64,000 nt of DNA, from positions 35,277-99,276 of IMG/VR virus record IMGVR_UViG_3300032038_000037; one strand, given 5' to 3'. The notes beneath the pieces were generated by a model. It searched no databases. It worked only from the letters and a program-made list of their open reading frames with translations, and was not told the DNA's origin. The position numbers and the translations under genes were made by a program. This document shows positions 1 through 50,600 of this stretch, piece by piece. The DNA is from a virus (lineage: Duplodnaviria; Caudoviricetes). Numbering within the stretch: the first letter of the stretch is position 1; the number at the start of each line of letters is the position of its first letter.

Positions 1-3000
1 CTAACGAACTAGTATCTGCATTTTGAATTGTTCCTTCATTATTTTGAATATCAATTATAGCAGGAATTTCTTTTATGTCTCCTGAACTATCAATTATATC
101 TTGAAACATCTTCGCTCCACCAGCTAAAGTTATTACGTCATCATTAATGCTAGTTATTTCAAAAACATTAACCAAACCTGAAGCCGCAAGCGCAGAAGTT
201 GGATCTTCTGAAGTATAATTACTAACTTTACACCAGTCCCCAATAGAGAATAATAATGGTTTTTCAACTCTTACTAATAGATCATTAGCATAAATTATTG
301 TTTCTTGATCTATTATATAATATAACATTATATCATTTATATTTGGTTCACTTACTCGTCTATACTCAGTACCATTTTTAGTAAAATAATCAATATCATC
401 ACCAAACTCATATGTTGATGGCGCGGGTTCACCCTCTGGAATTAATTTTTGATAAGTATATTGTGAAGTTTGAGAGATAGTAGCTTCCTTAATAGTAGAA
501 CTTGGTCTAAATATGAAAATTCCACCAACAGCTTCAATTTCTTCATATTCGAATACTGCTGTTTTAATTGCTCCACGTGCGGTAATATTATTAAATATGG
601 CATCTCCACTAGATTTAATTGCCCAACCTCTTGAAGAATCATCAAAATATGTTGATGAACCTATGGTAGCATCAGTATCAGTACCTTGTAAAACTATTGA
701 TTCAGCACCTGAACCAACATTAACTGAATCTGTAAAAATACCACCTTTAGCATTAATAATACCTGACATTTCTATATCGCCAGAATCATCAGTTTCAAAA
801 ACACTTTCTCCTTTGGAATTCTTAATACGAATACCATATTGATAATTACCACTAGTGTCTTGCTCTAATGCGCCAATCTTAATACGCTCTTGGTCATTAG
901 CTACAACTTGAAAATCATTATCAGAACTAATTGATACATAACCATCTGTATAAGAATTCTTAATGAAAAAACCGTCCCATAATAAACCAAATTGTGCAGT
1001 ATTCTTAATATCCTCTAATGATTCAGCTTGGAATTCTTCTCCATCTAATACACCATATAAACCATATTTATCAAAACGTACATAAGTTTTTAAATCAATA
1101 CCATTAGGACCATAACCATAAGCATTTAATCCATATTTGTCCCAACGGAAAGAAGGATTATCACCATCTTTAATTAATACATTCTGTGTATCAATAGTAT
1201 TAATTGTAAGTCCTTCTGCAGTAACAACTGTATCCCAGTTATATCCACCGTCTAGACTTGTTTTTAATCCCGCACCTGCAATTTTCATTTGACGCATTGG
1301 ATCTAAAATATCTTTTACTATAATACCATCTTCAACGGCAGTAATTGTATTATCTCCCGAAAGCATAAAACCGCCGCCTAATTCGTTTAATGATTTTAAT
1401 AAAAGACTTGCATTAATAAATCCACCTTCATCTAATATGGATGCAGCGCGCGAATATGAAGCAGAATTATATTCAACAGATTGTACAGCTGCAGCCATAC
1501 GCTGGAATAAATCATCAAATTGTGTTTTATAATTCTGAATTGTAATTGTATTCTCCGAAGCATCATCTAAATGCCACTCCACTTCAGAAACAACTACTTC
1601 TTCTCTAATTGGTGTCTGTATTTTCCAGCTATATTTAACATATAATTCATCATCGTCAATATCATCAAGTATTGTAGCTATATTGTTTCTAAAATCATAA
1701 CTAAAATGCATATGATGATCAAAATCACGATAAATATCTAATACATCTGTTGTATTTTCTGGTAAATAAATTGTTTTATTTTCTACACTAAAAACATCTA
1801 TATCTTCAATTATTTCATTGTGATAACCAAAGAATTGAGTATCTTCTATATAAGTTTTATCACCAACTTTAAAAAGATAATTCTCAAAGCCTGGTTGTTC
1901 ACTAATTTCATGAACTGTTAAATCATAACTAACTTTAGGTTGCGCGCTAGTGTTTGAAACACTTAAAGCGTCAAGATAATATAATTCATTATCGATATAA
2001 TCATCAGAAGTCCAAGTCCCTTCCTGAATATATCTGCTATATTTTTTATAAAATTTTGCCTCAACCTCATCTTTTTCATCTAAAAGTTCTTGCATTATAT
2101 CTTTAATTCCTTTTTGTTCTTCAATAGGAACTAAAGTAAAAGATTTTGTACCTTTTATTGGAATTGTAATTATAATAGGTTCAGCTGTTATATATGTTTG
2201 ATCATTACTTGTATATTTTAATTGATAATTGTCTGGATAATGCTTAAAATTTATTCTTTCATAGAGATTATCTTGAGAAAAAGATTTCTCTGTTACTGTA
2301 GTATTAATATCATATGTACCAAAATCATTCTCTAATGTAAAAGATAATCCTTCTATATAATCATCTAATATTTCTTTTGTTGCATTATATTCTACGCCAT
2401 CTACTACTTTTGAAATAGTAGATACTGTTAAAACATAATTTTTTGTTCCATTAATGAGTAAATCTAATTCCTTTTTTTCTGTTTTACTCATTTCTAATAA
2501 TGGTGTATAATCATTAATAACTTGTTGATTTGTATAAATTCTACCTACTATATCTGTTAAAGTCTCATGATCATTTGAAGGAATAATATTAACTAATCTT
2601 TTAAGTCTATCCTCTTCAGTAGGTGGATCATAAATTTTTTCTTCATTCTCTGTATGATTAATTTCCCATATATGTTTAGTAAAATAACTTAATATTGCGG
2701 GCGGTATTGTTGAAGTAAAGAATGGTGCATATGTTGAATAACTACCATCTGAAAAAGGAATTTCAAAACCTTCTGTATCGTCAACTATACCAATATATTT
2801 GATATCAGATAAAGTATATCCGCCAGCATCTAAGCTACTAATTTCATATTCTTTAGTAATAGAATCTATACCATCTACCCTATCTTTTTCATCAAGAACA
2901 ATTTCATTACCATCTATATCAAAGAATTGTGGAGTAATAATTTCAACAAAATTAGGAAAAACACTGAAAAATTTTGTAACATTGTTCTCAACAGTAAAAT

Positions 3001-6000
3001 AAAAACTTACATTATAACCACGATCGTTCACATAGTCATTATATTCAATACCCGTTAAATCTTTAAACTCAAATAAAGAATCTGTATAATTTTTCTGTGC
3101 TTCTTCAACAAGTTCATGATATACATTTACATTACTATTAGCTTTTGTTCTTGCGATCGCAGCAAGTTGCCTTTGAGCATTATAATAAGCGTATTGAGTA
3201 TTAATACCTTTTAATTGTTCTACAAAAGTATTATAATCAATATAATATTGTCGAGGATTTTCAATAAGTCCTTGATTTAAATAATAGGACATATTAATAA
3301 TATAAGAGTCTCCACTCGGGTTAGATTTCGCACTCGCTATTGAAACCACTCCGCCCTCAACAACATCGTTTTCAACTTGTTCTACAATTAATTTAGAAAC
3401 AAACTCATCAGACTCTATTGTCCTTTGAATAGACTCTAAATTAATTCCATATTTAAAACCTGCAAAATTATCATCACCACTATATTTATGGAAAGATATT
3501 TTTTTAGACGGCGCGCCTTCTGAATCTAACTTAATCGCTCCCGTTTCATCATGTTCAACAACGAATTTTGCCCAACACTCAAAAGACTCGCATAAATCTT
3601 GAATTATATTAAAACAATTAGATTGAGAAGCTTCAATCGTTGAAATTTTCTCATAATTTTCATTATATAAAGGCTTTATATCATTATCAGGGTCTAATCC
3701 TAAAGATTCTGCAATTGCGTCTATTGAACTAAATGTTTCAATACTTTCTTCTTCTGTATCTTCTTCAGGTTGTAAATAGAAGAAATCAGTAGAAATAGAA
3801 GTTGCTTTAGGAATATTACCAATTAATACAATATTTCCATCGCCATCTAACTTTTTCTTAAAGAGCTGCACTTCTTTTATACAAAAATAACAATTTGGAT
3901 TTACTTCTGTAGTATAATTTGAATCGGTAATATATAAGAAAATTCCATAATCATCTGCCGTATCTGCTAATACTGTATTTGAAATAGATTTTTTACAAAC
4001 AGCAGTAGTTAAATAATAATCTAAAAAATCAGAATTTTGTTCAACAAAAGTATGGGTATTAGTATCCCAAATTCTGTCAATTGTTGAATGATCTTCTAAT
4101 TCTTCTCTATAGATACAATCGATAGTTGGAGTAACACTAACTCCATCTTTATAATAAGCTACATACTTATCATTATCATTTTTCTTAAAATAACCACCAG
4201 TTATTATAGTATTTTTTATCTCAAAAGGCCCATCAAATTCAAATAAGATATTATTAATATCTGGAGTATAAAGATAAACCTGTTCTTCTGTTTTTGATTT
4301 TTCATCATAAACAACTTTTGGCTCCATTGTATATTTAGCTATAACAGCCTTAATCAACCCTTCTTGTCCAGGTTGTATCTGCGGGCGGCCGCCGTCTTCA
4401 TTTGTTAAGCCATAAGATATACGAAAAACATATTCTTCTCCTTTGGAAAAACTGCCAATTTCACTTCTATATTCTCCAATACCTTCATTAACAATAGAAT
4501 CACTATAATTAGTAGCTTTTCCGCTTGTTTTCTTAAATTGAGTCCTTAAATATCCTTTAATACCATTAAGTTGTGTTAGATCAATAACTGATGATGCAGT
4601 AATATTTGGATAAGAAACCAATTCAATAGGTTGAAGAAGATATGCGCCTTTTTCAAGTGAAGTTGTAAACGTAAGTCCTTCATCATAAATTTCTGTTAAA
4701 AGCTGTTTTAAATCTAAATCAAAGGGATCAGTTAATATAGATATTAAATTTCCCCCATCATTGTTTTGGAAAGTAAAAGTATAATCTGAAGCATTAAGCA
4801 TATCAGAATTATAATGTGCTTCTCCAATAGTAGTACCGCCTCTTTTAACATAAATATCTAAAAGGTCTGGTTGATGTTCAGAACCAGTTTTTTCAAAATT
4901 AGCTTTCCATGTATAAACTAATTGAATTTGATAATCTGCATTAATTTCATAAGTAAATACAGTATCTTGATAAGTTATAATTGTTCCTTCTTCTGCTTCT
5001 TCTTCAACGGGTTCTGGAGATAATTTAATTCGTAAATCTGTTAGAATTTTTTTGAAATTTGTAAACCTTAAACTTTCTCCTATATTTTCTCCAACCCTTA
5101 AATCAGAAGATAATTTTGTAATTTTACTCTTTTCGCTTGGAGTAGCTGATGACCATCCATCTAAACTTCCATCTTGATAAATATTGAAGCCTGATCCATT
5201 AATTACAAAATTTGTAACTACATCAGAAGTTACATATTCATAATCTGTATATTTATAAATTGTTTTTTTAGAGCCATCATTATAAGTAGCTTCATATATT
5301 GTTACTGGTCTATCTTTAACCGTGTCATAACCAATTTGTTGATTATAAGCTAAACGATAACCACGATAATTAAGATTAATACCAGTTGAATTATACTCAT
5401 CAGTTTGCCTTGATAAAACAACATTATCAATAGTGATTTCTGTACCCGTTTCATTATATGTAACATTTTCTGCGTCAGCTAAAAAACAATAGTTAGGCAT
5501 CTGCGCAACATTATTATCATCTACTGTTGTTGTTTCTGGATCATAATCTTTTGCTCGTAAGAAGAAAATGTTTTCTTTACTCTTATTAGAAACTATACTG
5601 TAAAACATTAATAGTGTTTCATCAGCTTCTACCGTAACTTCCTCATTTGTCTGTAAGTCTTTTACAACTATATCTGAATTAATTGTATACTTATAAAGCG
5701 GCTCAGCAACAAATTGTTGGATTATATCAGAGTGTTCTTTATCAATAACCCAGTCAGTTCCTTTAACCGCTTTTTCACCTAATTCAAAAATTGTTCCTTG
5801 ATTATTTCTTAAATCATTAGAAAGAACAATATTATACCCAACTTTTCCTAATTCATTAGCAAATAATCCAGTAGCAGTATAATTAAAAACATTTGAATCA
5901 GAAGTTTCTTCACAAGTTTTTATTACAAAATCATACCACTCTTTATTATAAAAAAGTTTAACTTTTCTTTCATTTACTAAATATTTTTCTAAAGGATTAA

Positions 6001-6235
6001 CAATATAATCATTTATTAAATCATCATAATATTTATGAACCAAATCAAAAGTTAAAGTTATCTGTCCATTTACATTTTGGATAAAAATAACATTACTAAT
6101 TCTACTTGGTGCTGTCATTTGATCAGAACCAATAGTAGCTATTTTTACTTCTTTATAATATGATTTATCTTCTTCTTCAACCAATACATCTTCCCAAACA
6201 GAAACTTCATATGGTCTTTTCAGCTTATCGCTCAT
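1..6235 (-). CDS. Large tail/baseplate hub (Tal-like, phage minor structural) protein, partial (>2078 aa, 3' end outside window)
   Basis: ATG at 6235 with GGAGATAAAGG RBS. Begins MSDKLKRPYEVSVWEDVLVEEEDKSYYKEVKIATIGSDQM... and the frame still reads open at base 2 (...IQNADTSSL). It is absent from the ORF track only because there is no in-window stop. Lies directly downstream of Dit. Confidence 0.85.
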   Translation of the reverse strand, partial: MSDKLKRPYEVSVWEDVLVEEEDKSYYKEVKIATIGSDQMTAPSRISNVIFIQNVNGQITLTFDLVHKYYDDLINDYIVNPLEKYLVNERKVKLFYNKEWYDFVIKTCEETSDSNVFNYTATGLFANELGKVGYNIVLSNDLRNNQGTIFELGEKAVKGTDWVIDKEHSDIIQQFVAEPLYKYTINSDIVVKDLQTNEEVTVEADETLLMFYSIVSNKSKENIFFLRAKDYDPETTTVDDNNVAQMPNYCFLADAENVTYNETGTEITIDNVVLSRQTDEYNSTGINLNYRGYRLAYNQQIGYDTVKDRPVTIYEATYNDGSKKTIYKYTDYEYVTSDVVTNFVINGSGFNIYQDGSLDGWSSATPSEKSKITKLSSDLRVGENIGESLRFTNFKKILTDLRIKLSPEPVEEEAEEGTIITYQDTVFTYEINADYQIQLVYTWKANFEKTGSEHQPDLLDIYVKRGGTTIGEAHYNSDMLNASDYTFTFQNNDGGNLISILTDPFDLDLKQLLTEIYDEGLTFTTSLEKGAYLLQPIELVSYPNITASSVIDLTQLNGIKGYLRTQFKKTSGKATNYSDSIVNEGIGEYRSEIGSFSKGEEYVFRISYGLTNEDGGRPQIQPGQEGLIKAVIAKYTMEPKVVYDEKSKTEEQVYLYTPDINNILFEFDGPFEIKNTIITGGYFKKNDNDKYVAYYKDGVSVTPTIDCIYREELEDHSTIDRIWDTNTHTFVEQNSDFLDYYLTTAVCKKSISNTVLADTADDYGIFLYITDSNYTTEVNPNCYFCIKEVQLFKKKLDGDGNIVLIGNIPKATSISTDFFYLQPEEDTEEESIETFSSIDAIAESLGLDPDNDIKPLYNENYEKISTIEASQSNCFNIIQDLCESFECWAKFVVEHDETGAIKLDSEGAPSKKISFHKYSGDDNFAGFKYGINLESIQRTIESDEFVSKLIVEQVENDVVEGGVVSIASAKSNPSGDSYIINMSYYLNQGLIENPRQYYIDYNTFVEQLKGINTQYAYYNAQRQLAAIARTKANSNVNVYHELVEEAQKNYTDSLFEFKDLTGIEYNDYVNDRGYNVSFYFTVENNVTKFFSVFPNFVEIITPQFFDIDGNEIVLDEKDRVDGIDSITKEYEISSLDAGGYTLSDIKYIGIVDDTEGFEIPFSDGSYSTYAPFFTSTIPPAILSYFTKHIWEINHTENEEKIYDPPTEEDRLKRLVNIIPSNDHETLTDIVGRIYTNQQVINDYTPLLEMSKTEKKELDLLINGTKNYVLTVSTISKVVDGVEYNATKEILDDYIEGLSFTLENDFGTYDINTTVTEKSFSQDNLYERINFKHYPDNYQLKYTSNDQTYITAEPIIITIPIKGTKSFTLVPIEEQKGIKDIMQELLDEKDEVEAKFYKKYSRYIQEGTWTSDDYIDNELYYLDALSVSNTSAQPKVSYDLTVHEISEQPGFENYLFKVGDKTYIEDTQFFGYHNEIIEDIDVFSVENKTIYLPENTTDVLDIYRDFDHHMHFSYDFRNNIATILDDIDDDELYVKYSWKIQTPIREEVVVSEVEWHLDDASENTITIQNYKTQFDDLFQRMAAAVQSVEYNSASYSRAASILDEGGFINASLLLKSLNELGGGFMLSGDNTITAVEDGIIVKDILDPMRQMKIAGAGLKTSLDGGYNWDTVVTAEGLTINTIDTQNVLIKDGDNPSFRWDKYGLNAYGYGPNGIDLKTYVRFDKYGLYGVLDGEEFQAESLEDIKNTAQFGLLWDGFFIKNSYTDGYVSISSDNDFQVVANDQERIKIGALEQDTSGNYQYGIRIKNSKGESVFETDDSGDIEMSGIINAKGGIFTDSVNVGSGAESIVLQGTDTDATIGSSTYFDDSSRGWAIKSSGDAIFNNITARGAIKTAVFEYEEIEAVGGIFIFRPSSTIKEATISQTSQYTYQKLIPEGEPAPSTYEFGDDIDYFTKNGTEYRRVSEPNINDIMLYYIIDQETIIYANDLLVRVEKPLLFSIGDWCKVSNYTSEDPTSALAASGLVNVFEITSINDDVITLAGGAKMFQDIIDSSGDIKEIPAIIDIQNNEGTIQNADTSSL

Positions 6236-6249
6236 TCCCTTTATCTCCT

Positions 6250-7401
6250 TTAATAGTATAAATAATTATAGAAAATCTCAGGTTTTTGAGTAGATACCGC
6301 ACAATTTAAATATATGCCTTGATGTCTAAAATCAAATTTATTTCCCTTAAAAATTCTACCAAAACTACCCTTTTTTATATGCTTATTGTATAAATTCCCA
6401 GTAGTACGCCAAGATTTTGAAATATAATCATAATGTACACCTTCTATTAATTCGGCGCGGGTATTAATCATAATACCATTTTCTGAAGTCGTGCCAGTTG
6501 TTCTTTCAAAAGGTTCAATTACTAAATCAGGTAATCCATCTGTAGCAATAATTATATTTTCTCCTTTTTCTAAATCTGGATCAATTCTATTATTAACATA
6601 AGGAATAAATAAATAATATGGCGTATCTATGTCTCCTGGATTATATACATTAATTTGTCCATTATATTTATTCAAATATCTAATGTTTTCAACTTCATCT
6701 TGATAAATATCGTATGCACCTTCAGTATATTCCTCTAATGTGAGTATTCCACTTGATGCCACCCATTCGTTAGTATTATCATATCCATTAGTCACATATT
6801 GATCTAAAGTTTTATATAATTGGCGCGCGAATGGATCATATGCTATAAAGCTAATTGATCCTTCGCCTTTGTAAATGCGCCTTTTTGTCCCTAAATAAAC
6901 CTTATGATTTACACTTCCAGGAATATACATTCCTTCTTGACTATCTTCACCAACAGTATTTTCTCCAACAATAGCCGTTCCTACTGTTGCAACTGATGCT
7001 AATTCTTCTTTAGATTTATGACCTGTAGTATCCCAATAATAATCTTCTTCATCAAAACAAATTGTTTCTAAAGAAATCGGTTCTGCTAATTTAACATAAT
7101 ATACCTTATAAGGACGTTCATCAAAAATCAATTTACAAATTTTTCTTTGACCAAATAATCTACGAATATTTCTATACTGTTCTTCAGTAACACTATCAAA
7201 AGCTATTTGAATTTCTATATTACGACTTTGATAAAAACTACCATAATAATAAACACCATCTTTACCACTAACTTCTACTGTTTTATCTTCAAAATCTGGT
7301 AATATAGTTTCTGCATATCTATCCCCATCGCTTACTCGAAGGATATTTAATTCACTTGAATGGACTCCATCAAAAGTAAAGCCCGTAAAATCTGACCACA
7401 T
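6250..7401 (-). CDS. Distal tail protein (Dit, Sipho_tail-like)
   Basis: N-terminal FTGFTFDGVHSSELNILRV...VSGKDGVYYYGSFYQSRNIEIQIAFD, then KLIFDERPYKVY, SFIAYDPFA and VYNPGDIDTP motifs typical of Dit; upstream of Tal-like gene. Confidence 0.8.
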   Translation of the reverse strand: MWSDFTGFTFDGVHSSELNILRVSDGDRYAETILPDFEDKTVEVSGKDGVYYYGSFYQSRNIEIQIAFDSVTEEQYRNIRRLFGQRKICKLIFDERPYKVYYVKLAEPISLETICFDEEDYYWDTTGHKSKEELASVATVGTAIVGENTVGEDSQEGMYIPGSVNHKVYLGTKRRIYKGEGSISFIAYDPFARQLYKTLDQYVTNGYDNTNEWVASSGILTLEEYTEGAYDIYQDEVENIRYLNKYNGQINVYNPGDIDTPYYLFIPYVNNRIDPDLEKGENIIIATDGLPDLVIEPFERTTGTTSENGIMINTRAELIEGVHYDYISKSWRTTGNLYNKHIKKGSFGRIFKGNKFDFRHQGIYLNCAVSTQKPEIFYNYLYY

Positions 7402-7411
7402 AATATCCTCC

Positions 7412-9106
7412 TTATATTATTTCTTTACACAATACTTTAATATCTATTACAAATCTTACAGCTCCGTCTTTAAGGTTTTTCGTATTATAACTAAAAACGC
7501 CTGCGCTGCTTTCAGATTTTTGCATAAATAATTCCCATAGTATTTGATTACTAGGATCTGAAGAAGATCCCCAAACTTTTTTACTACTGGTACCCATGTA
7601 GTAACCTATACCTTCAGAAGCATAAGAAATGTTATAACCAACAATACCTAATGGTATAAGACCTGGTAAACTAACTCTAATATATCTATGACCTGTAGTT
7701 TGACCTTTTTTCTCTATATAAATAGGTAAATGATTACCATGTCTAGTCCATCCTGTCGCTTGATCATAAACAGAATAAGTTACTTCACTACCAGTTCCAG
7801 CTGGAGAAGTTGAACCTCTACCTAATCTTACGCTTTTTATTACTAATCGTGGAGAATATTTATTTTTTAATGATTTACCACTCTCAAAAAATTCTGTTGC
7901 TTTTATTGGAATATTAGAATAATTACAAATAGTACCATTATTATCATATCCTATCATAAAACTTGTTGTAGAAGAACCATTCATATAAAATCTAGCTTCT
8001 TTTCCATATATATATAAATCGTCAGTTCTATAACCAGGATTTAATTGTGTAATTGAATTTGCATTTCTAACTAATAATCCTTTAGCATCTAAATATCCTT
8101 CTACTGGAGCTTTTATGTTTGTTTGCGTTTGTGTACTATCCACGATATAAATGCCAGTAGGTTTATTTTTGTATAAATATAAATTATCATCAAGTACATT
8201 AGTAATAAAATATGTACCCGCTGTATAACCATCTAATGGTCTTCGATCATGTACATATGTATTTGACCCTTGATTAATAATATCAGCATCATTATGAAGT
8301 TGAGAAGTTGCTTCATAAGCGGCCTCCCTATTAGGAATTTTTATAGTATAAGTTTGAGAACCAACATATAAAGTACCAATAGTTACTCCAGATTCAACTT
8401 CTTCAGTTGCTTCATAATAAATATATGGCGTTGATTCCTCAGGTTCTGGAGTTGGTTCTGGAGTTGGTTCAGGCTCTGGACTTGGGCTTGGTTCAGGTTC
8501 GGGTTCTGGACTCGGTTCTGGACTCGGCTGAGAATTACCTATTAATCTTCTTGCTAATTCTTTAATTAAATATGGAGTCGCCGCAGTATTTTTATCCTCA
8601 TCTGTATCTTCGGCATTTAACCAAGCATCAAAATCTGTATAACCACCCTCTTTTCCAAAACCATCTGTAAATAATTTAGTCAAACCATAATATTCACTAT
8701 TTGCACGAACACCGCGTATAAGCATATAATATAATGTATCATTCGCTGTAGCATCTAGCGAAGCTCCATTATATTCTTGTGTAATATCAGTATTACTTTG
8801 TTGACTAACCAACACAAAAAGACAAACCTCTCCGGCTTGCCACATATAATCAACTTTATCTTCTACATTTTTTGTTTTAATAAAAACACCTTCATCTTCA
8901 GAAAGTGCAGTTTGATTGTCCTCTCCATTAGACAAGCTTGTTCCATGGACAACTAGAGTAGGTGATTCTTCCGTATTGCCATTAGCAAAATAAACTGCTA
9001 ATAAATCACCTACAACAATATCATCATGTAATGGATTATAAATTGTAACTTCTTTTTCATTAGTGTCTGCGCTTGTAGCAGAAACCCCATAAAATAAATT
9101 AGCCAT
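7412..9106 (-). CDS. Tail fibre/baseplate-associated structural protein with Pro-Glu linker
   Basis: 564 aa in tail cluster; YYGLTKL and AATPYLIK fibre-type motifs; central (PE/PS/PT)n linker. Confidence 0.6.
   Translation of the reverse strand: MANLFYGVSATSADTNEKEVTIYNPLHDDIVVGDLLAVYFANGNTEESPTLVVHGTSLSNGEDNQTALSEDEGVFIKTKNVEDKVDYMWQAGEVCLFVLVSQQSNTDITQEYNGASLDATANDTLYYMLIRGVRANSEYYGLTKLFTDGFGKEGGYTDFDAWLNAEDTDEDKNTAATPYLIKELARRLIGNSQPSPEPSPEPEPEPSPSPEPEPTPEPTPEPEESTPYIYYEATEEVESGVTIGTLYVGSQTYTIKIPNREAAYEATSQLHNDADIINQGSNTYVHDRRPLDGYTAGTYFITNVLDDNLYLYKNKPTGIYIVDSTQTQTNIKAPVEGYLDAKGLLVRNANSITQLNPGYRTDDLYIYGKEARFYMNGSSTTSFMIGYDNNGTICNYSNIPIKATEFFESGKSLKNKYSPRLVIKSVRLGRGSTSPAGTGSEVTYSVYDQATGWTRHGNHLPIYIEKKGQTTGHRYIRVSLPGLIPLGIVGYNISYASEGIGYYMGTSSKKVWGSSSDPSNQILWELFMQKSESSAGVFSYNTKNLKDGAVRFVIDIKVLCKEII
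8435..8530 (-). repeat. Pro-Glu low-complexity tandem repeat (6/12-bp units) encoding PSPEPSPEPEPEPSPSPEPEPTPEPTPEPE
   Basis: Repeated ggttctgga/ggttcagg units on the plus strand. Confidence 0.9.
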
Positions 9107-18247: not shown

Positions 18248-18625
18248 ATGAGCAGCTATGAAGAAAAGATTGTTACAATTTTAAAAAGAAATAAAATTAA
18301 ATTTCAAAGAGAAAAAACTTTTTCAGATTTAAAAAAAGGTAAGTATCGCTTTGATTTTTTTATTCCAAATTACAAAGGCGCGCCAAGACTCTTAGAAATA
18401 AACGGTGAACAACACTACAAACAAGTTAAAAAATTCCAAAAAACTCGTAAAGATTTTCTTGCACAAAAAGAGCGAGATCGTAGAAAAATCTCCTACTGTC
18501 TCGCTCATAAGATTGACTTATATATTATACCTTATTGGGACATTGACAAAATACAATCGGTTAAAGATCTATTTCGTCCAATGTACAAGGCGCGCAGTCG
18601 ATGGCACTGCGATTTAAGTCGCTGA
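18248..18625 (+). CDS. DUF559/Vsr-like PD-(D/E)xK endonuclease
   Basis: YRFDFF...LLEINGEQHY...RDRRKISYC...LYIIPYW; AGGAGG RBS; opposite strand to neighbours. Confidence 0.75.
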   Translation: MSSYEEKIVTILKRNKIKFQREKTFSDLKKGKYRFDFFIPNYKGAPRLLEINGEQHYKQVKKFQKTRKDFLAQKERDRRKISYCLAHKIDLYIIPYWDIDKIQSVKDLFRPMYKARSRWHCDLSR

Positions 18626-20203: not shown

Positions 20204-20236
20204 AAATTTGACTTTATTAATAATATGTGATATAAT
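20204..20236 (+). promoter_or_regulatory. sigmaA-like promoter for the nuclease-helicase cassette
   Basis: TTGACT 20208-13, 17-nt spacer, TGn-TATAAT 20231-36. Confidence 0.8.
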
Positions 20237-20266
20237 AATAATAGGGTTAAAATAGGAGAAAAGAAG

Positions 20267-21247
20267 ATGATACATATAAATTTAATAGAAGTTTTTTTAA
20301 TAATATTAGTTTTCATTTTTGCTATATTATATTATACTCAATATCAGCTTTATAAAACATTAAAAGAAACAAAAATTGAAGACTTTAATACAGAAACAAA
20401 ACAAATTTGTAATGAAATTAAATCAAAAGAAAATAAAGAATTAGCTGAGTTTATCCAACAAACAAAACTAAAAATAGAAGAGTTGGAAAACTTATTATCT
20501 GAAAAAGAAAAAAGATATAGCGAAGTAAATCAAGATTTAGACATATACAAAACAGATAGGCTTTTAGATATTGATTCATCTATTGAAAACTATTATGAAC
20601 TAAAACTTAATGAAATTATTGGTGTGCTTCAAAGCATAAAAGAAGAAAATTTACAAATAATCAATAAAGAAACTGAAGAACAACAAAAAGAAATCGAAGA
20701 AATTGAAAAAGAGTTAGAAAGTTTACGTAGTAGACGCGCAGCAATAAATAAGGAGATTCTGCGACAAAGAGAAATTGAAGAGCAACAAGATTTTTACCGA
20801 ATACAATTATTAGAAAATGATAAGCCAGATATAGAAATCTTGCAAACTACGGCTCCGCGCCTTCGACATCCAGAAGCTATTAATAAAATTATTTGGAGTA
20901 ATTATTATCAAAAACCTTTAGCTGAATTAAGAAAACGTTTACTGCCAAATGGTGATTATAGTGGAATTTATAAAATAACTCGTCTTAAAACAGGAGAAAT
21001 TTATATAGGTCAAACAACCTCAATTGATAAACGTTTTCAAGATCATGTAAAATCAGCCTTAGGTGTTGGTACATTAACAAGTTCTCAACTTCATCGTACA
21101 ATGGCTAAAGATGGCCCAGAGAACTTTACTTTTGAAATTATTGAGCAAGTTGAAAAGGACAAATTAAAAGAGCGTGAAGCATATTATATAAATTTTTATG
21201 ACAGTAAAAATTATGGGTTAAATACAATAAAAGGACAAGAAAAATGA
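20267..21247 (+). CDS. Membrane-anchored coiled-coil GIY-YIG nuclease
   Basis: N-terminal TM (VFLIILVFIFAILYY), ~150-aa E/K/Q coiled coil, C-terminal SGIYKIT...IYIGQT...KRFQDH...EREAYYI...GLN. Confidence 0.85.
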   Translation: MIHINLIEVFLIILVFIFAILYYTQYQLYKTLKETKIEDFNTETKQICNEIKSKENKELAEFIQQTKLKIEELENLLSEKEKRYSEVNQDLDIYKTDRLLDIDSSIENYYELKLNEIIGVLQSIKEENLQIINKETEEQQKEIEEIEKELESLRSRRAAINKEILRQREIEEQQDFYRIQLLENDKPDIEILQTTAPRLRHPEAINKIIWSNYYQKPLAELRKRLLPNGDYSGIYKITRLKTGEIYIGQTTSIDKRFQDHVKSALGVGTLTSSQLHRTMAKDGPENFTFEIIEQVEKDKLKEREAYYINFYDSKNYGLNTIKGQEK

Positions 21248-22293
21248 ATTTAAATGATAAACAAAAACAGGTTGTACAAACTACAAAAAATAAGGTTTTA
21301 GTTCAAGCCGCAGCAGCGTCAGGAAAAACAGCATGTCTTATTGAAAGATTGAATTGGCTTTTACAAATGGGGCAAGACCCTAGTAAAATTGTTGCAATTA
21401 CTTTTACTAATAATGCTGCAGCTGAAATTAAAGACAGATTAATTACAAAAGCTGAAGGAATGTTTGTTGGTACTGTTCATTCTTATTGTAACTATCTTCT
21501 GCGCGCAGGTGGTATTGCAACAGATAAGATTCTTGATGAAGATAGATTTGATGATTTGTTTCCTTTAATTAAAGAAAATCCGCATTGTATTCGTGAGATT
21601 GACCATTTAATTGTTGATGAAGCTCAAGATTCAACCGAATTACAATTTGAATTTTTTGAATTACTTTCTCCAAAAAACTTTATGTACTTTTTTGATCTAC
21701 GACAATCTATTTATGGCTTTGCAGGTGCATATCCAGATTATCTGATTGAACTAAAAAGACAAAATGGAATTACTATTTATGAGCTAAACCAAAATTATAG
21801 AAATGGAAATGCAATACTTAATCAAGCAAGAAAAGTTATTAATAGTTTAGGTAGAGAATTTCAAGACCATTCAATTCCAATGCGTCATGTACAAGGAAAA
21901 TTTGTTTATGGGGAAATGACTCTTGAAGGTATTGCTAATAAATTAAAAGAAGAAAAATTTGGAGATTGGTTTATTCTTTGTCGATCTAACAAAGAAATTG
22001 AACAAGTGTGTTTTGTTCTGAAAAAACATGGTATTCCTTGTGATACTTTTAAACAAAGAGATTTGAATAATCAACAAATACAAGATAGAATGAAAGCTGA
22101 TACAGTAAAAGTTTTAACAGTTCATTCTGCTAAAGGGTTGGAAGCTAATAAAGTTTTGGTTTATGACCCTCGTTTATTTGATGATAGCCAGAGAAGATTG
22201 TATTATGTGGCGGCAACCCGTGCAAGAGATGAGTTACTGTGGGTTAAACCGCCGAGAAAAACGCCGAAGAAAAAAACCACAAATTGGGAATAA
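21244..22293 (+). CDS. Minimal UvrD/Rep-family SF1A helicase
   Basis: AAAASGKT, ITFTNNAA, GTVHSY, IVDEAQD, QSIYGF, NYR, ILCRSN, TVHSAKGLE, RRLYYVAATRAR; only 349 aa; ATGA overlap with the nuclease. Confidence 0.9.
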   Translation: MNLNDKQKQVVQTTKNKVLVQAAAASGKTACLIERLNWLLQMGQDPSKIVAITFTNNAAAEIKDRLITKAEGMFVGTVHSYCNYLLRAGGIATDKILDEDRFDDLFPLIKENPHCIREIDHLIVDEAQDSTELQFEFFELLSPKNFMYFFDLRQSIYGFAGAYPDYLIELKRQNGITIYELNQNYRNGNAILNQARKVINSLGREFQDHSIPMRHVQGKFVYGEMTLEGIANKLKEEKFGDWFILCRSNKEIEQVCFVLKKHGIPCDTFKQRDLNNQQIQDRMKADTVKVLTVHSAKGLEANKVLVYDPRLFDDSQRRLYYVAATRARDELLWVKPPRKTPKKKTTNWE

Positions 22294-22324
22294 AAAAAAG
22301 AGGTCTATTATAGACCTCTTTTTA
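22293..22324. terminator. Bidirectional intrinsic terminator
   Basis: AAAAAAAGAGGTCTA-t-TATAGACCTCTTTTT between convergent genes. Confidence 0.85.
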
Positions 22325-23420: not shown

Positions 23421-25277
23421 ATGGATTATACTGCAAAAGATATAGAAACTTTAAGCTTTCGCGATGCAATAAGAGAACGTGTCGCAATGTACATGGGTAG
23501 CGCGGATAATCAAGGCGTCCTTCAATGTGTTAGAGAAATTATTACAAACTCAATAGATGAAATGACAATGGGTTATGGAGACACAATTCAAGTCTTTCTT
23601 GATAGGAGTGGAGAAGTAACTGTTAAAGATAATGCACGTGGGGTTCCTTTCGGAAAGCGCGAAGATGGCACTGAAGCTATGGAAGCTATCTACACAATGC
23701 CGCACACAGGTGGTAAATTTAATGAAAAAGTTTATCAAAATGTAGCTGGTATGAATGGGATAGGAAGTAAAGGCGTTGCTCTTTCTTCTTCTTATTTTAA
23801 AGCCATTTCAGTTAGAGATGGACAAATGGCTACATTAATTTTACGAGATGGAATTAAAGAGTCTTTTAAAGTTGAACCTGCGGAAAATACAAAAGAACAT
23901 GGTACACAAGTTACTTTTATTCCTTCAGAAGAAGTATATAATTTAGAGCCTATTAAAATTGACTTTGAAGATTTAAAAGCAATGTGTAAGAATTGGTCTT
24001 ACTTAACTCCAAAAGTAACTTTTAAATTAAATAATTTAATGACAAAAGAAAAAGTTACTTATAAATCTGATAATGGAATTAAAGATTTCTTAAAAGATTC
24101 AATTACAAAGCCAATTCACAAAACACCATTATATATTTCAATAGAAGAAAATGGAATTGAATGTGAAGTAGCCATGCAGTGGGCGGCCAGCCGAAAAGAA
24201 CACTGGTATGTATTTACTAATGGACTTGCTAATTCAGAGGGTGGAACTTCACTTACTGGCGTGAGGACTTCGATAACTAATTTCTTCAAAAAGAAATTTA
24301 AGGGAGAATTTGCAGCTGATATTGCAAGAGGTGGGTTATTTTATGTGGTAAATTGTAAAGTACCAAATCCTTCTTTCGCAAATCAGACAAAAACAAAGGT
24401 AAATAATCCTGAATTAAGAGGTTTATGTCAGCGCGCGACCACACAAATGCTTGATGATTTCGCAAGACGGCACCCTGCAGAGTTCGAACAGATATTAACT
24501 CTTTTAACTAAAGAATTAAAAGCTGAACGCGCTGCAGAACGAGCAAGAGAGCAGGTACTACGAGCTGGAAAAGAAATTGAGAAAAATCAGAAGAAAAAAG
24601 TTTTCGCTTCAGATAAGTTGAAAGATGCCGAATTTCTTGGAGAAAACTCAACCCTTCTTTTAGTAGAGGGAAATTCTGCGGCAGCTTCAATGGCAGTCGC
24701 ACGTGATGTGTCCAAATATGGAATACTTGCTTTGCGAGGAAAAATGATTAATTGCCTAAGCAACCCCGATGAAAAGATTTTTCAGAATGAGGAAATTAAA
24801 TTATTTCTTAGTGCGATGAACATAGTTCCTGGTAAATATAATGCAAAGAAACTTCGTTATGGAAAAGTTGCAATCTGTACTGATGCTGATTCAGACGGTA
24901 GCCATATTGGTCTTTTGATTATGGCAGCGCTCCGCTATTTAGCTCCAGAATTTCTTGATGAACAGCGTTTATATTGGCTTCGCTCTCCGCTTTATATTGT
25001 TAAGAATGGAAAAAAAGAATCTTATTTCTTTACCGATGAAGAGTTTGCAAAAGCTAAAAATAAAGTTAAAGGTGAAGTTCAACGCAATAAAGGACTTGGC
25101 GCACTATCAGAAGCCCAAGCAAAACGCTCAATGTTTACCGAAGAATTTCAACGTATGGAACAGCTTGTTCCTTCCAAAAATAGTTTATTTTTATTGGAAG
25201 ACTTAATGGGAGTAAACGTAGAACCAAGAAGAAACTTTATCTTCAATAATATTGATTTTAGTGAAATAAGAGAATAA
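23421..25277 (+). CDS. gyrB: Type IIA topoisomerase (gyrase) subunit B
   Basis: GHKL motifs EIITNSIDE, DNARGVP, HTGGKF, GMNGIG; FANQTK; Toprim VEGNSA, LRGK, DADSDGSHI; RNKGLG. Confidence 0.93.
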   Translation: MDYTAKDIETLSFRDAIRERVAMYMGSADNQGVLQCVREIITNSIDEMTMGYGDTIQVFLDRSGEVTVKDNARGVPFGKREDGTEAMEAIYTMPHTGGKFNEKVYQNVAGMNGIGSKGVALSSSYFKAISVRDGQMATLILRDGIKESFKVEPAENTKEHGTQVTFIPSEEVYNLEPIKIDFEDLKAMCKNWSYLTPKVTFKLNNLMTKEKVTYKSDNGIKDFLKDSITKPIHKTPLYISIEENGIECEVAMQWAASRKEHWYVFTNGLANSEGGTSLTGVRTSITNFFKKKFKGEFAADIARGGLFYVVNCKVPNPSFANQTKTKVNNPELRGLCQRATTQMLDDFARRHPAEFEQILTLLTKELKAERAAERAREQVLRAGKEIEKNQKKKVFASDKLKDAEFLGENSTLLLVEGNSAAASMAVARDVSKYGILALRGKMINCLSNPDEKIFQNEEIKLFLSAMNIVPGKYNAKKLRYGKVAICTDADSDGSHIGLLIMAALRYLAPEFLDEQRLYWLRSPLYIVKNGKKESYFFTDEEFAKAKNKVKGEVQRNKGLGALSEAQAKRSMFTEEFQRMEQLVPSKNSLFLLEDLMGVNVEPRRNFIFNNIDFSEIRE

Positions 25278-47669: not shown

Positions 47670-50600
47670 TTATCTTGAACGCCCAGTAACTGTAACATTT
47701 CTATATTTAGCTTCTTTAACAATAATCTTTTTAACTCTATCTGCAACTTGATCAACATCATAATCGCTATCAATCTTATCAACATTAATATCTATATCTA
47801 AATTAATATCGCCACTAGATGTATATTGATCATGATTAAAGATTCCGCGTTTTGTTGCATCAGCTAAAACATCTTTTAATGCTAAGAAGTTTTTGGTTTC
47901 TGATGGATTTAATACAAGTTCTGGTTTAGAAGGGGTACCATCCATCCAAGCTGGACCTGTATAATCTGCTAAACCTCCAGTAGCAAATTTTAATGGATTG
48001 CCAGTGATTTTACCGTTCTTTCCAACCTCATATATCTTGCCTCCTTTTGCTTTAAAAAGTTTCTTATCAAGCAAGAAATGAGTATATTCTCTTCCAAGAC
48101 CTGTTAATTTGGCTTTCTTTTTAAATTTAGAGTAAGAAGTTTTTTTATCTTTCCATTTTTCATGTATACCAGTCTTACCAGTACTAGGATCCCATGCTTC
48201 AATACCCTTACTAGTATTATAATATAATTTACCTTTATTAGTAATAGTACCTTTTCTACCTTTTAATTGTACTTCTTTTCCAGCTTTTAAAGGAGAATAG
48301 GTTGAAGCTGCAATAAATTTAGCCCAATCCTTATGAATTTTACTTCCTACTGAATTATTTCTTAATTGCCAAGCTAATTCTTTACCTGCTTCTTTTTGAT
48401 TGTTTTTTATAAATTTCGTATTAAAACCTTTACCACCAAACTTAATAGCAAGTGTTTTACCTGTTCCTTTACCGGTTTTTACATTATAATCCTGAGCATA
48501 AACGGTATCACCTTTTTGAGCAGCAATTCTAGTTCCAGCTTTATTTACAGTACCACTTTTAATCGCTCCACCTTTCTCTTTACCATTCGTATCTAAAGTA
48601 GCGGTTTTTTTCGTACCCGCATCTACGGCTCTAACTTTCGCAGCACTATAAGTTTTAACAACTGATGCTCTTTTAAAACCAGCATCTAAAGCATTTTTTG
48701 CAGAAAGACCATTCTCTTTAAAGTTTTTAAGAGTATAGCCACCACTCTTTAATTCCTTTACGCTGTATCCTGATTTTTTAGCTTGTTTAGCGTTATAACC
48801 CGCGGCTCTAAATTGTTTAGCAGTATATTTTGCGTCATGGATTTGTTTTCCAGTATATGTTCCTTTTAAAGCTTTTGCACTAAAACCTGCGGCTTTAGCT
48901 TGACTTGCTGAATATCCCGCTTTGTGGAAATCTTTTACAGAATAACCAACTTCTTTTAATGATTTAAAAGCGTCATTTTCATCTTGCCCGCCCTCATTAC
49001 GAAAACGGGTCTTTGCATCTTCAATATTAATAGTACTTCTATTAGATTTAATTTCATTCTTAAGCGTTCTTAGAGATAAAGAATCATAAGCATCACGACT
49101 ATTAAAAACAGTATTTATTAACTTCTTTGCTTCATCTTGGAAATCTTTAATAGCTTTTTCAAAAGTTGCAACACTTTCATTAAAATTAGCAACCTTTAGG
49201 GTTTCTGAAGCAAAATTAATGCTTTCTAATTTTTTACCCCATTTATCAAGCATTTCTGTACTACCAAGATAGTAAAGTCTTGCTAATTGTTGGGTTTGTG
49301 GTGATGTATCACCATTAGCAATTCTTTGAACAAGATTTTCTGCTCTTGCTAAATATATTCCAGTAGTTTTGCTATAATTAAGTTGAGCAGTTAATAATTC
49401 AATTTGTTTTTCTCTTTGCTTAGCTGCTTCATCAGCCTGATCTTGAAGCCTATCAAGCAATTGATCTTCTAAAGAATCTTCATATTTCCCAGTATCTTCA
49501 CCAATTTCTTTCTCTAATCTAGCAATTTCTGCGGCATTGCCTCCTGCAGTATCTGCCCGCAGCATTGCTAAACGATTCATTTTATTGGTAATATTTTCTT
49601 CGTCTTTTTGATTTTGTTCGGCTTTACGCTGTTTGTCAAGCTCTTTTTTAACTTTATCAATTAAATCTTTAAAAGCATCTTGAATTGATTTATTTAAGTC
49701 ACTTAAATTATCAATTGTTTTTTGCTCTTCGTCTTCCATACCATCTCTAATTTTTTGGGTATAGTCAGACATCATTTGATATTGTTCATTACGCTGATCA
49801 TAAAGAGAATTTATTTTATCTGCTATTGATGATTCTACATCTTGAAGCTTATTAATATCATCTAAAATTTTATCATAGTAATCTTGAACAGCTTTAGCTT
49901 CAGTGGCATTAATATCTCCAGCGTTCTTATCTTTTTCAAATTGATACCTATCAAATGTAACTTGGATTTGACCATGCTCATCATGGGTTGTTTGAACATA
50001 ACGCTTACCTACTTGTGCCCTATCCGTTTCATCTTTTCTTTGATTATATAAGGCTAAAAGTCGTTCCAGAGTACCTTGATCTTTTTTATCTTTTTTAGCT
50101 TGATCATAAGCATCTTTTGCTTCTTTTTGTTTTGTATATTCATCTTGTAACGTTAAATCATCGGCTAATTGTTGCTTGTAAGCGTCCCATAAATCTTTAT
50201 CTTTATTAATTTGATATGTTGTAGCTGCTACGCTAGCATTAATTGCTTTCAAATAATCATTTGATGTTTCTGCTAAATTACTAAGCGATGAATCAACCAT
50301 GTTAGTAATTAATTTTTGTATACTTTCAACTTTATTAGCAAATGATTCACTTAATGAAATTTTATCTTCAAGGTTTTTAATTCTTGTTAAATGATCTTCC
50401 CAACCATAAAGAGTTTCTTTTAATTCTTTTCTTAAATCAGCGAGTTTATTATCTGCATCTAATTTTGCTTTATCTGCGGAAATTTTCTTTGAAGTTAAAT
50501 CATCAAGCTCTTTTTTCGCAGCTTCTAAAACAGCATCAGCAAATTTCTTGCCCTGTTTTTTATTTTGAGCGATTTTATTGATTTTATTATAATCAATTTT

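What the first reader, a model, noticed from the sequence alone, without database searches (positions are those of the whole stretch)
20204..22324. Self-contained cassette: membrane-anchored GIY-YIG nuclease plus minimal UvrD helicase (candidate superinfection-exclusion or anti-competitor system)
Seen: the cassette has its own consensus sigmaA promoter, two translationally coupled genes (ATGA overlap) and a bidirectional terminator. It sits on the opposite strand within late virion/lysis genes. Gene 1 is a TM helix, a ~150-aa coiled coil and an intact GIY-YIG domain. Gene 2 is a 349-aa SF1A helicase with all core motifs but apparently lacking most of the 1B/2B domains. Known: nuclease plus stripped-down UvrD pairs occur in defence systems (Gabija GajA/GajB), and a membrane-bound GIY-YIG anti-phage nuclease (PD-Lambda-1/SNIPE) acts on DNA at the membrane. 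Inference: a phage-borne early module that degrades incoming DNA at the membrane, or tethers and processes host DNA. I do not recognise this exact pairing as a named system.
Basis: partly seen in the sequence, partly recalled or inferred. Interest (0 to 1): 0.8.

Follow-up and report, generated by a model that had tools for sequence, protein, structure and literature searches.

The report
Membrane-tethered phage nuclease plus mini-helicase
A rumen phage carries a conserved two-gene unit: a DNA-cutting enzyme anchored to the inner face of the cell membrane on a long stalk, plus a stripped-down DNA-unwinding motor. It has the layout of a bacterial nuclease that cuts phage DNA as it enters the cell but shows no detectable kinship beyond the shared nuclease fold, and its job is untested.

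Summary
Gene 1 (20267-21247, 326 aa) has an N-terminal membrane helix, a Pro/Gly-free helical stalk, a conserved ~65-aa region and an intact I-TevI-type GIY-YIG domain with nothing after it. Gene 2 (21244-22293, 349 aa) is a UvrD/PcrA-type motor lacking 1B and 2B. The ATGA overlap, a near-consensus promoter and a two-way hairpin are present.

Gene 1 belongs to a very large, unnamed family seen almost only on phage contigs (820 clusters at E<=1e-30). 141 of 150 representatives keep the anchor, all with cytoplasmic-nuclease topology.

The helicase lies within the fetched flank in 51 of 82 nuclease loci, including 24 of 24 close relatives. A sister lineage keeps the nuclease inside its replication module without the helicase (0 of 5 genomes). 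The pair is therefore linked but separable.

It is not a SNIPE relative: no DUF4041 in 41 members, and profile-profile probability 0.6%. It is not Gabija.

In TAG-recoded relatives the nuclease gene is amber-rich (0.32) while the helicase (0.07) and replication genes (~0) are not. This suggests delayed translation of the nuclease.

Best guess (0.35): a SNIPE-like exclusion nuclease. Late DNA processing is nearly as likely. This scan has noted the same unit in other genomes.

The parts
20208..20236 (+). sigma-70/sigmaA-type promoter TTGACT-17-(TG)TATAAT
   Evidence: A like promoter lies upstream of the homologue in 28 of 49 loci, against 25 of 245 random windows.
20254..20259 (+). Shine-Dalgarno AGGAGA, 7 nt before the ATG of gene 1
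   Evidence: sequence read directly.
20267..21247 (+). Gene 1: 326-aa membrane-tethered GIY-YIG nuclease
20276..20338 (+). N-terminal membrane helix (about residues 4-24), predicted N-out/C-in
   Evidence: Kyte-Doolittle mean 2.76. 141 of 150 family representatives have such a helix, and 141 of 141 have more K/R after it than before it.
20339..20761 (+). Fast-evolving helical stalk (about residues 25-165)
   Evidence: At most one Pro or Gly per 28-residue window, and charged. Variable in length and sequence. Median identity 32%, against 55.5% for the C-terminal half.
20762..20959 (+). Conserved pre-nuclease region (about residues 166-231), basic, of unknown fold
   Evidence: Conserved in A1 and A2. 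No Pfam or PDB match. Not DUF4041.
20960..21226 (+). I-TevI-type GIY-YIG catalytic domain (residues 232-320). Y235, Y246, G248, R256, H260 and E304 are invariant; N319 is nearly so.
21244..21247 (+). ATGA stop/start overlap
21244..22293 (+). Gene 2: 349-aa SF1A (UvrD/PcrA/Rep-type) helicase core without 1B and 2B, with a basic C-terminal tail ending in W-E
22295..22323 (.). 13-pair hairpin with T-runs on both strands (two-way terminator-like)
18248..18625 (+). 125-aa stand-alone nuclease-like gene (matches the nuclease part of homing-endonuclease PHROGs). In most relatives it lies directly upstream of gene 1; here it is separated by two minus-strand genes.

Best explanation
Shown by sequence. 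A rumen siphophage of a Gram-positive host encodes, under one strong host-type promoter, two proteins.
- The first is a single-pass membrane protein whose cytoplasmic part is a long variable helical stalk, a conserved basic region and a catalytically intact I-TevI-type GIY-YIG nuclease. It has no DNA-recognition domain of its own.
- The second is a bare SF1A helicase motor.

Inferred mechanism. The anchor and stalk hold an otherwise unspecific nuclease at the inner face of the membrane. It can then only cut DNA that lies or arrives there. The most likely substrate is DNA being injected by a second phage, that is, superinfection exclusion. This would be a convergent, phage-borne counterpart of the bacterial SNIPE nuclease. 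The variable N-terminal part and the conserved middle region would place the enzyme at the entry site and on DNA.

The helicase is a separable helper, not an obligate subunit. It could load at the nick or end and unwind, exposing DNA to further cutting or to the phage's RecJ-like exonuclease.

In TAG-recoded relatives, translation of the nuclease but not of the helicase waits for amber suppression. That would spare the phage's own genome while it is still entering the cell.
For: 1. Architecture is conserved across a huge family. There are 820 clusters at E<=1e-30. 141 of 150 representatives have the anchor. 141 of 141 have positive-inside topology. The stalk is 146-273 aa. The protein ends about 90 aa after the GIY motif.
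2. Catalytic residues are invariant in 41 diverse members and align with I-TevI.
3. The conservation pattern matches that reported for SNIPE homologues: nuclease most conserved, N-terminal region least and of variable length (PMC13190303 passages).
4. The topology is the same as shown experimentally for SNIPE, where removing the anchor is toxic (PMC13190303).
5. These phages are siphoviruses with a giant tape measure protein, the class that SNIPE acts on.
6. The amber load is 0.32 of Q-type codons in the nuclease genes, against 0.07 in the helicase and 0-0.01 in replication genes, over 20 recoded loci.
7. Almost phage-only: 3 matches in 185,579 species genomes, all gut/rumen MAG contigs.
8. 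A dedicated consensus promoter is conserved.
Against: - No homology to SNIPE beyond the superfamily fold.
- The C-terminal half is as conserved as topoisomerase II. In a sister lineage the gene sits between a wHTH regulator and ClpP-like, Sak4, DnaB-like and primase genes. That looks like a core DNA-metabolism gene rather than a competition gene.
- Known exclusion proteins act early. The amber load instead points to late translation in recoded relatives. This phage is not recoded and has an early-type promoter.
- The amber argument rests on the published but unproven idea that recoding times translation.
Confidence: 0.35

Rival explanations
1. Late DNA processing for the phage's own cycle. The tethered nuclease nicks or debranches replication/recombination intermediates, or clears host and unpackaged DNA, at membrane-associated replication or packaging sites. 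The mini-UvrD, with the phage's RecJ-like exonuclease and Sak4-like annealase, processes the ends.
For: - Position at or inside the replication/recombination module.
- Core-gene-like conservation of the C-terminal half.
- Late-type amber load in recoded relatives.
- From recall: phage debranching nucleases such as T4 gp49 act late, and the eukaryotic structure-specific nuclease Slx1 is a GIY-YIG enzyme.
Against: - I know of no debranching or packaging nuclease that is membrane-anchored on a long stalk.
- Rapid divergence of the anchor and stalk (32% identity) is unusual for a housekeeping replication factor.
- I did not test whether the genome lacks another resolvase.
Confidence: 0.3
2. Host take-over. 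The nuclease degrades the host chromosome, which is membrane-attached through transertion, to shut off the host and supply nucleotides. The helicase assists.
For: - From recall: T4 endonuclease II, a GIY-YIG-superfamily enzyme, degrades host DNA.
- The promoter here is an early host-type one.
- In SNIPE, loss of the anchor gives chromosome cleavage (PMC13190303).
Against: - The amber-rich nuclease gene in recoded relatives argues against an early role.
- In SNIPE, bringing host DNA to the membrane did not lead to cleavage (PMC13190303).
- A tether would hinder access to the nucleoid.
Confidence: 0.15
3. An obligate two-protein nuclease-helicase complex of the Gabija/Hachiman kind, carried by a phage as a defence or anti-competitor system.
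For: - Translational coupling.
- Adjacency in 24 of 24 close relatives and in 63 of 80 helicase-anchored loci.
- GajB models match the helicase (E 3.8e-42).
Against: - The nuclease occurs without the helicase in a whole lineage: 0 of 5 genomes and 29 of 82 loci.
- The helicase occurs without the nuclease in 7 loci that have room for it.
- Their amber loads differ.
- The GajB match is generic UvrD similarity.
- No OLD/Toprim GajA-like partner: gene 1 matches only homing-endonuclease and UzuA models through its GIY-YIG domain, and coiled-coil models such as LmuB, JetC and DruC through its stalk.
Confidence: 0.1
4. A free-standing homing endonuclease gene (selfish element) that happens to lie beside a helicase gene.
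For: - The catalytic domain is of the I-TevI type and passes TIGR01453 (66.4 bits, cut-off 56.05).
- PHROG and PADLOC label it a homing endonuclease.
- True homing-type GIY-YIG genes occur in the same phages.
Against: - The match covers only positions 2-87 of 215 of TIGR01453.
- There is no DNA-binding domain, because the protein ends with the catalytic domain.
- The nuclease is C-terminal, behind an anchor and stalk.
- Its position is fixed and it is inherited as a family of 820 clusters.
- 39 anchored members separate from 3 homing-type domains on a tree (SH-aLRT 87).
Confidence: 0.03

Closest known systems
SNIPE (PD-lambda-1), the E. coli membrane-bound anti-phage nuclease (Saxton et al., Nature 2026, PMC13190303; abstract and passages read)
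   Same: - Single N-terminal membrane helix with the bulk of the protein in the cytoplasm.
- Elongated helical middle part.
- A conserved region just before a C-terminal GIY-YIG-superfamily nuclease.
- The nuclease is the most conserved part and the N-terminal part the least.
   Different: - No DUF4041 (0 of 41 members).
- Profile-profile probability 0.6% against three true DUF4041 proteins.
- The nuclease is of the I-TevI/PF01541 type. T5orf172 was not among the Pfam families listed for the members.
- Encoded by apparently virulent phages, not by bacteria.
- Often paired with a helicase.
- Function untested.
I-TevI and other GIY-YIG homing endonucleases (TIGR01453; PDB 1mk0/1ln0)
   Same: The catalytic domain aligns over its whole length, with all catalytic residues.
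   Different: In homing enzymes the domain is N-terminal and is followed by a linker and a DNA-binding domain. Here it is C-terminal, has no such domain, and sits behind an anchor and stalk. The gene has a fixed position and is not sporadic.
UvrD / PcrA / Rep (SF1A helicases)
   Same: All motor motifs of domains 1A and 2A.
   Different: About half the size. 1B is reduced to about 24 residues and 2B is absent. It scores far below every equivalog cut-off. From recall: Rep lacking 2B is a more active helicase, so the loss need not disable it.
Gabija GajB
   Same: A UvrD-like ATPase found next to a nuclease gene; the best PADLOC match.
   Different: There is no GajA (OLD ATPase-Toprim) partner. 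The similarity is confined to generic SF1A motifs, and UvrD itself scores higher against solved structures.
Uzume UzuA (single-gene defence with a C-terminal GIY-YIG domain)
   Same: The nuclease domain matches the C-terminal 95 positions of the UzuA model in 29 of 41 members.
   Different: UzuA proteins fetched here are about 277-aa soluble proteins with a globular N-terminal domain, no anchor and no stalk.
Phage superinfection-exclusion membrane proteins (T4 Imm/Sp, HK97 gp15, TP-J34 Ltp); recalled, except that HK97 gp15 is cited in PMC13190303
   Same: Phage-encoded, membrane-located, and acting on the DNA entry of a second phage.
   Different: None of these is a nuclease.

Membership tests
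SNIPE / PD-lambda-1 | N-terminal membrane anchor with a cytoplasmic C-terminal part | tested here: met
   By prediction only. Kyte-Doolittle mean 2.76. 141 of 150 representatives have the anchor, and 141 of 141 are positive-inside.
SNIPE / PD-lambda-1 | [quoted passage not shown] | tested here: not met
   0 of 20 and 0 of 41 members at E<=1. No match in the whole phage record. hhalign of A2 against 3 true DUF4041 proteins gave probability 0.6%. Caveat: the reference alignment is thin.
SNIPE / PD-lambda-1 | C-terminal GIY-YIG-superfamily nuclease with a catalytic Glu | tested here: met
   The domain is present and E304 is invariant. However, it belongs to PF01541/I-TevI and did not align with the T5orf172-type domain of the DUF4041 proteins.
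SNIPE / PD-lambda-1 | Encoded in bacterial genomes as a defence gene | tested here: not met
   3 matches in 185,579 species genomes, all MAG contigs from rumen or gut that also carry the phage helicase. The scan patterns reach close relatives only.
SNIPE / PD-lambda-1 | Cuts phage DNA during injection | not testable with these tools
   Needs infection assays.
Gabija | GajA (OLD-family ATPase + Toprim nuclease) next to GajB | tested here: not met
   Gene 1 matches no GajA model.
Gabija | GajB-type UvrD-like protein | tested here: inconclusive
   GajB models score E 3.8e-42. UvrD, PcrA and Rep score as well or better, so the match is generic.
GIY-YIG homing endonuclease (I-TevI type) | GIY-YIG catalytic domain with Tyr, Tyr, Arg, His, Glu and Asn | tested here: met
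GIY-YIG homing endonuclease (I-TevI type) | C-terminal DNA-binding domain joined by a linker | tested here: not met
   The TIGR01453 match covers positions 2-87 of 215. The proteins end 89-98 aa after the GIY motif.
GIY-YIG homing endonuclease (I-TevI type) | Sporadic, mobile distribution | tested here: not met
   Fixed neighbourhoods in 82 loci. The family has 820 clusters of full-length proteins.
UvrD/PcrA/Rep (SF1A) | Motor motifs I-VI in domains 1A and 2A | tested here: met
UvrD/PcrA/Rep (SF1A) | Accessory domains 1B and 2B | tested here: not met
   UvrD 104-210 corresponds to 24 residues here, and UvrD 300-550 to 83 residues.
Uzume (UzuA) | Full-length match to the UzuA model | tested here: not met
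   Only positions 183-276 of 278 match. The N-terminal domains differ.

The most novel reading that the evidence does not exclude
Virulent gut and rumen siphophages have independently built their own 'SNIPE'. It is a homing-endonuclease catalytic domain, stripped of its DNA-recognition part and hung from the membrane on a fast-evolving stalk. It destroys the genomes of rival phages as they enter. In amber-recoded lineages it is translationally time-locked, so that the phage's own slowly entering genome is spared. A bare UvrD motor serves as an optional amplifier.
Probability: 0.3. Interest if true: 0.8.

Novelty: new variant of a known kind. Interest (0 to 1): 0.6.

Why it matters
If the exclusion reading is right, cutting DNA at the point of entry would be a strategy that bacteria and virulent phages reached separately, from different branches of the GIY-YIG superfamily. 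A very common but unnamed gene of large gut and rumen phages would gain a function.

If the DNA-processing reading is right, it would be the first membrane-tethered nuclease of phage DNA maturation.

Either way, three things are concrete and testable:
- The family is large (820 clusters at 50% identity).
- Its anatomy is clear-cut.
- The amber load differs sharply between two genes of one operon. This bears on how stop-codon recoding times gene expression.

The 349-aa helicase is also a natural example of an SF1A motor without 1B and 2B.

Tried and rejected
The ESM Atlas holds a low-confidence model of gene 1 (pTM 0.34, pLDDT 0.63). Its nearest clusters are only GIY-YIG phage proteins.
- Expression. 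No RNA holder was listed.
- Near-identical phages. The GenBank phage collection holds no close relative at DNA level: one 52-base match.
- SNIPE homology was rejected.
- Uzume was rejected, because only the catalytic domain is shared.
- My first gene clustering joined the mini-UvrD with the 523-aa DnaB-like helicase by single linkage. BLASTP shows no relation (E 0.094). The split is 52 against 21 members with none in both, so counts use tblastn/BLASTP with gene 2 itself.
- In the stop read-through screen, the TAA and most TGA rows are noise from running past true stops. Only the TAG rows were followed up.
- The tree holds only 3 homing-type domains, because my motif filter dropped 6 of 9 candidates. 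It is weak support.
- I did not test whether the genome lacks other resolvases.
- The 20 loci were picked because gene 1 was interrupted under table 11. The amber richness of gene 1 in them is therefore partly by selection. The contrast with the helicase and the replication genes is not.
- The 25 'GIY' genes include a few homing-type GIY-YIG genes.
- Literature. Searches listed no paper describing this family. The SNIPE homologue list and Supplementary Table 3 of PMC13190303, which I could not see, might contain phage-borne or DUF4041-less relatives.
- Recalled, not seen: Borges et al. 2022 on recoding; the I-TevI residue numbers; the activity of Rep lacking 2B; T4 EndoII and gp49; Slx1.
Full report
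WHAT IS THERE

The window is the last 64 kb of a 99,276-bp IMG/VR virus record, estimated 84% complete. The two ORFs are exactly as described. Gene 1 is 20267..21247 (326 aa). Gene 2 is 21244..22293 (349 aa). Both are on the plus strand and overlap by ATGA. AGGAGA lies 7 nt before the first ATG.

A TTGACT-17-TATAAT site with an extended TG lies at 20208-20236. A 13-pair hairpin with T-runs on both strands lies at 22295-22323. Promoter-like matches as such are no more frequent here than in shuffled sequence (34 found, 35.3 expected), so I tested conservation instead.

- A match of at least 10 of 12 lies within 160 nt upstream of the gene-1 homologue in 28 of 49 loci that could be scored, against 25 of 245 random windows.
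- These 28 are 27 of the 29 scored loci of the lineage that also has the helicase, plus one locus whose helicase side was not covered. None of the 19 scored helicase-less loci has one.
- A terminator-like hairpin follows the helicase in 17 of 45 loci, against 6 of 240 random windows. This is mostly where the next gene converges.

GENE 1

- Residues 4-22 give a Kyte-Doolittle mean of 2.76.
- No 28-residue window starting between residues 22 and 169 holds more than one Pro or Gly, and most hold none. The stretch is highly charged. Its only database matches are helical stalks and coiled coils: ATP synthase b, apolipoproteins, ZorA, LmuB and JetC.
- Residues 232-315 match Pfam GIY-YIG (E 1.6e-7) and pass NCBIfam TIGR01453. 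That match covers only positions 2-87 of 215 of the model.
- A profile of 41 diverse members aligns end to end with the solved I-TevI catalytic domain (E 1e-13).
- Y235, Y246, G248, R256, H260 and E304 are invariant, and N319 is nearly so. By recalled numbering these are I-TevI Y6, Y17, R27, H31, E75 and N90. The two PDB chains differ from each other at exactly the Arg and Glu positions.

THE FAMILY

- A profile search of 1.84 billion representatives found 820 clusters at E<=1e-30. The best 150 are 197-385 aa long, about 140 of them over 280 aa, and most match along most of the profile.
- Of these 150, 141 have an N-terminal hydrophobic 17-mer. The other 9 have none; 6 of these are short (197-260 aa).
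- All 141 have more Lys/Arg in the 12 residues after the helix than before it (median 4 against 0). This predicts an outside N-terminus and a cytoplasmic nuclease.
- The stretch between anchor and GIY motif is 146-273 residues. The proteins end 89-98 residues after the GIY motif, so there is no DNA-binding domain.
- Relative to this window, the N-terminal half is 32% identical at the median and the C-terminal half 55.5%. That is higher than the helicase in 25 of 26 paired loci, and in the range of the topoisomerase II subunits at 60-64%.
- No source gives the family a name.

GENE 2

It matches the UvrD N- and C-terminal Pfam domains and the UvrD, PcrA and Rep models, all far below their equivalog cut-offs. 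Against E. coli UvrD:
- residues 2-91, 116-201 and 285-330 align with UvrD 9-103, 211-299 and 551-609;
- 24 residues stand where 1B lies;
- 83 residues stand where the rest of 2A plus 2B lies.

The motor motifs are invariant in 15 relatives of 343-376 aa. Most of these end in a basic tail closed by W or W-E. It is not the replicative helicase. The phage has a DnaB-like helicase, a primase, a RecJ-like exonuclease, a DnaE-type polymerase and a Sak4-like annealase. Gene 2 is unrelated to the DnaB-like protein.

CO-OCCURRENCE

Nuclease-anchored set, 82 IMG/VR loci: two found with the single protein and the best 80 of 501 found with the profile.
- Helicase within 300 nt downstream: 38.
- Helicase 0.8-1.5 kb downstream, with a gene inserted: 5.
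- Helicase within 300 nt upstream: 4.
- Helicase 1.4-2.5 kb upstream: 4.
- No helicase although at least 1.5 kb of downstream flank is present: 29.
- Too little flank: 2.
- All 24 loci at 50% identity or more have the helicase.

Helicase-anchored set, the best 80 of 403 loci. Some contigs are shared with the first set.
- Nuclease directly upstream: 63.
- Nuclease 0.8-0.9 kb upstream: 4.
- No nuclease despite room: 7.
- No room: 6.

In one exception an endolysin block lies between the small nuclease gene and the helicase, and the nuclease gene is absent.

In the helicase-less lineage, 0 of 5 whole records encode a gene-2 relative, and 3 of them are rated complete. The same search finds the gene in the window's own record.

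GENE ORDER

- Close relatives usually read: holin-like gene (minus strand), 125-aa nuclease-like gene, nuclease, helicase, small genes, topoisomerase II. All from the 125-aa gene onward are on the plus strand.
- In this window the 125-aa gene (18248-18625) is cut off from gene 1 by a 159-aa gene and the endolysin. Two small minus-strand genes separate the helicase from topoisomerase II.
- In the helicase-less lineage the order is: topoisomerase II, DNA ligase, wHTH protein, nuclease, ClpP-like protein, two or three unknowns, Sak4-like, DnaB-like helicase, primase.

So the unit belongs to the edge, or the inside, of the replication module. Its island-like look here is local.

WHERE THE FAMILY LIVES

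A scan of one genome for each of 185,579 species gave 3 matches. All are on MAG contigs from rumen or goat gut, and all three genomes also hold the helicase. The scan patterns reach only fairly close relatives. Among GenBank phages only Phass-1 matches beyond the catalytic domain. Read with table 15, Phass-1 has a full 326-aa member with 8 amber codons, where the record annotates a 144-aa protein. The Phass-1 paper proposes Clostridia hosts and reports tape measure proteins of about 3150 aa (PMC10607447, passages). The window's 3724-aa ORF matches tape measure families.

KNOWN SYSTEMS

- SNIPE. The paper describes an N-terminal membrane helix, DUF4041 and a C-terminal GIY-YIG nuclease, with the bulk in the cytoplasm. 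DUF4041 is needed for defence and DNA binding (PMC13190303).
  - DUF4041 is not found in 20 or 41 family members at E<=1, nor in the phage record.
  - I fetched three true DUF4041 proteins from Bacillota genomes. Profile-profile comparison with the family gave probability 0.6%.
- Uzume. PADLOC matches are homing endonuclease models (39 of 41 members) and UzuA (29 of 41), both through the catalytic domain only. UzuA proteins are soluble and have another N-terminal domain.
- Gabija. The helicase's GajB matches are generic, and there is no GajA.
- Homing-type domains. 39 anchored members separate from 3 homing-type domains of the same phages on a tree (SH-aLRT 87). This is weak.

THE AMBER CLUE

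Earlier notes of this scan pointed to amber-dense stalks in relatives. I took 20 loci in which gene 1 is interrupted under table 11 and read them with TAG as Gln. The TAG share of Gln-type codons was:
- genes matching gene 1: 0.32 (179 of 555);
- helicase: 0.07 (14 of 201, 11 of them in two loci);
- the two topoisomerase subunits: 0.01 each;
- c5, Sak4-like, c10, DnaB-like and primase genes: 0;
- all other genes, mostly virion genes: 0.21.

The literature holds that recoded stops mark late genes (PMC10607447 introduction; Borges et al. 2022, recalled). If so, the nuclease is not needed, or not tolerated, early. The helicase in the same operon can be made at once. This phage is not recoded, so the inference is by homology only.

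READING

Shown:
- the anatomy;
- the family and its phage-only range as far as searched;
- linkage with, and separability from, the helicase;
- the conserved promoter;
- the lack of kinship with SNIPE and Gabija.

Inferred: a nuclease without its own DNA-recognition domain, tethered to the cytoplasmic face of the membrane, acts on DNA there. I rank exclusion of DNA injected by a second phage first (0.35), late processing of the phage's own or host DNA close behind (0.30), and host take-over at 0.15. An obligate Gabija-like complex (0.10) and a homing endonuclease (0.03) are unlikely. A follow-up elsewhere in this scan reached the same overall reading on other DNA (e1-5960125).

- the helicase-less sister lineage inside the replication module;
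- the third conserved gene;
- the promoter and terminator statistics;
- the 20-locus amber contrast;
- the direct profile test against true DUF4041 proteins.

Noticed in passing
window 18248-18625 (+): A 125-aa stand-alone nuclease-like protein that matches the nuclease part of homing-endonuclease PHROGs and has no Pfam hit. In most close relatives it lies directly upstream of gene 1. Longer versions of 236-327 aa sit at variable places, such as between the topoisomerase subunits, and look like true homing genes.
   Followed up: partly
L004 4467-5447 (GenBank OQ749652, Phage Phass-1): Under table 15 this is a full 326-aa family member with 8 in-frame TAG codons. The record annotates only a 144-aa and a 46-aa hypothetical protein there.
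   Followed up: yes
Loci L026, L035, L053, L055, L064, L073, L077, L078, L099, L141, L152, L161 and others: Many relatives are TAG-recoded phages. One such contig is binned in a MAG labelled Methanobrevibacter (L161), which is probably a binning error.
   Followed up: partly
window 47670-58847 (-): A 3724-aa ORF whose first ~900 residues match tape measure protein families. This implies a very long siphovirus tail.
   Followed up: partly
window 2-6235 (-): An ORF of more than 2077 aa that runs off the window, with no PHROG match at E<=1e-5.
   Followed up: no
L090 and L093, about 5500-9100: The helicase is kept, but the membrane nuclease gene is absent. An endolysin and two small minus-strand genes lie between the 125-aa gene and the helicase, much as the endolysin lies beside gene 1 in this window.
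   Followed up: partly
alignment A3 (gene 2 relatives), C-terminus: Most mini-helicases end in a Lys/Arg-rich tail closed by W or W-E. This could be a partner-binding tip.
   Followed up: no
relatives L002-L024 against window 23421-25277: Topoisomerase B identity to the window is bimodal (52-54% or 76-86%), while the nuclease and helicase identities vary smoothly. This suggests module exchange between these phages.
   Followed up: no
relatives: minus-strand gene before the 125-aa gene (clusters c15, c44, c34): Small proteins with one N-terminal membrane helix and a conserved C-terminal motif around GGN(S/G), next to endolysins. They are possibly holins. In L137 one sits directly upstream of the helicase, on the same strand, in place of the nuclease.
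   Followed up: no
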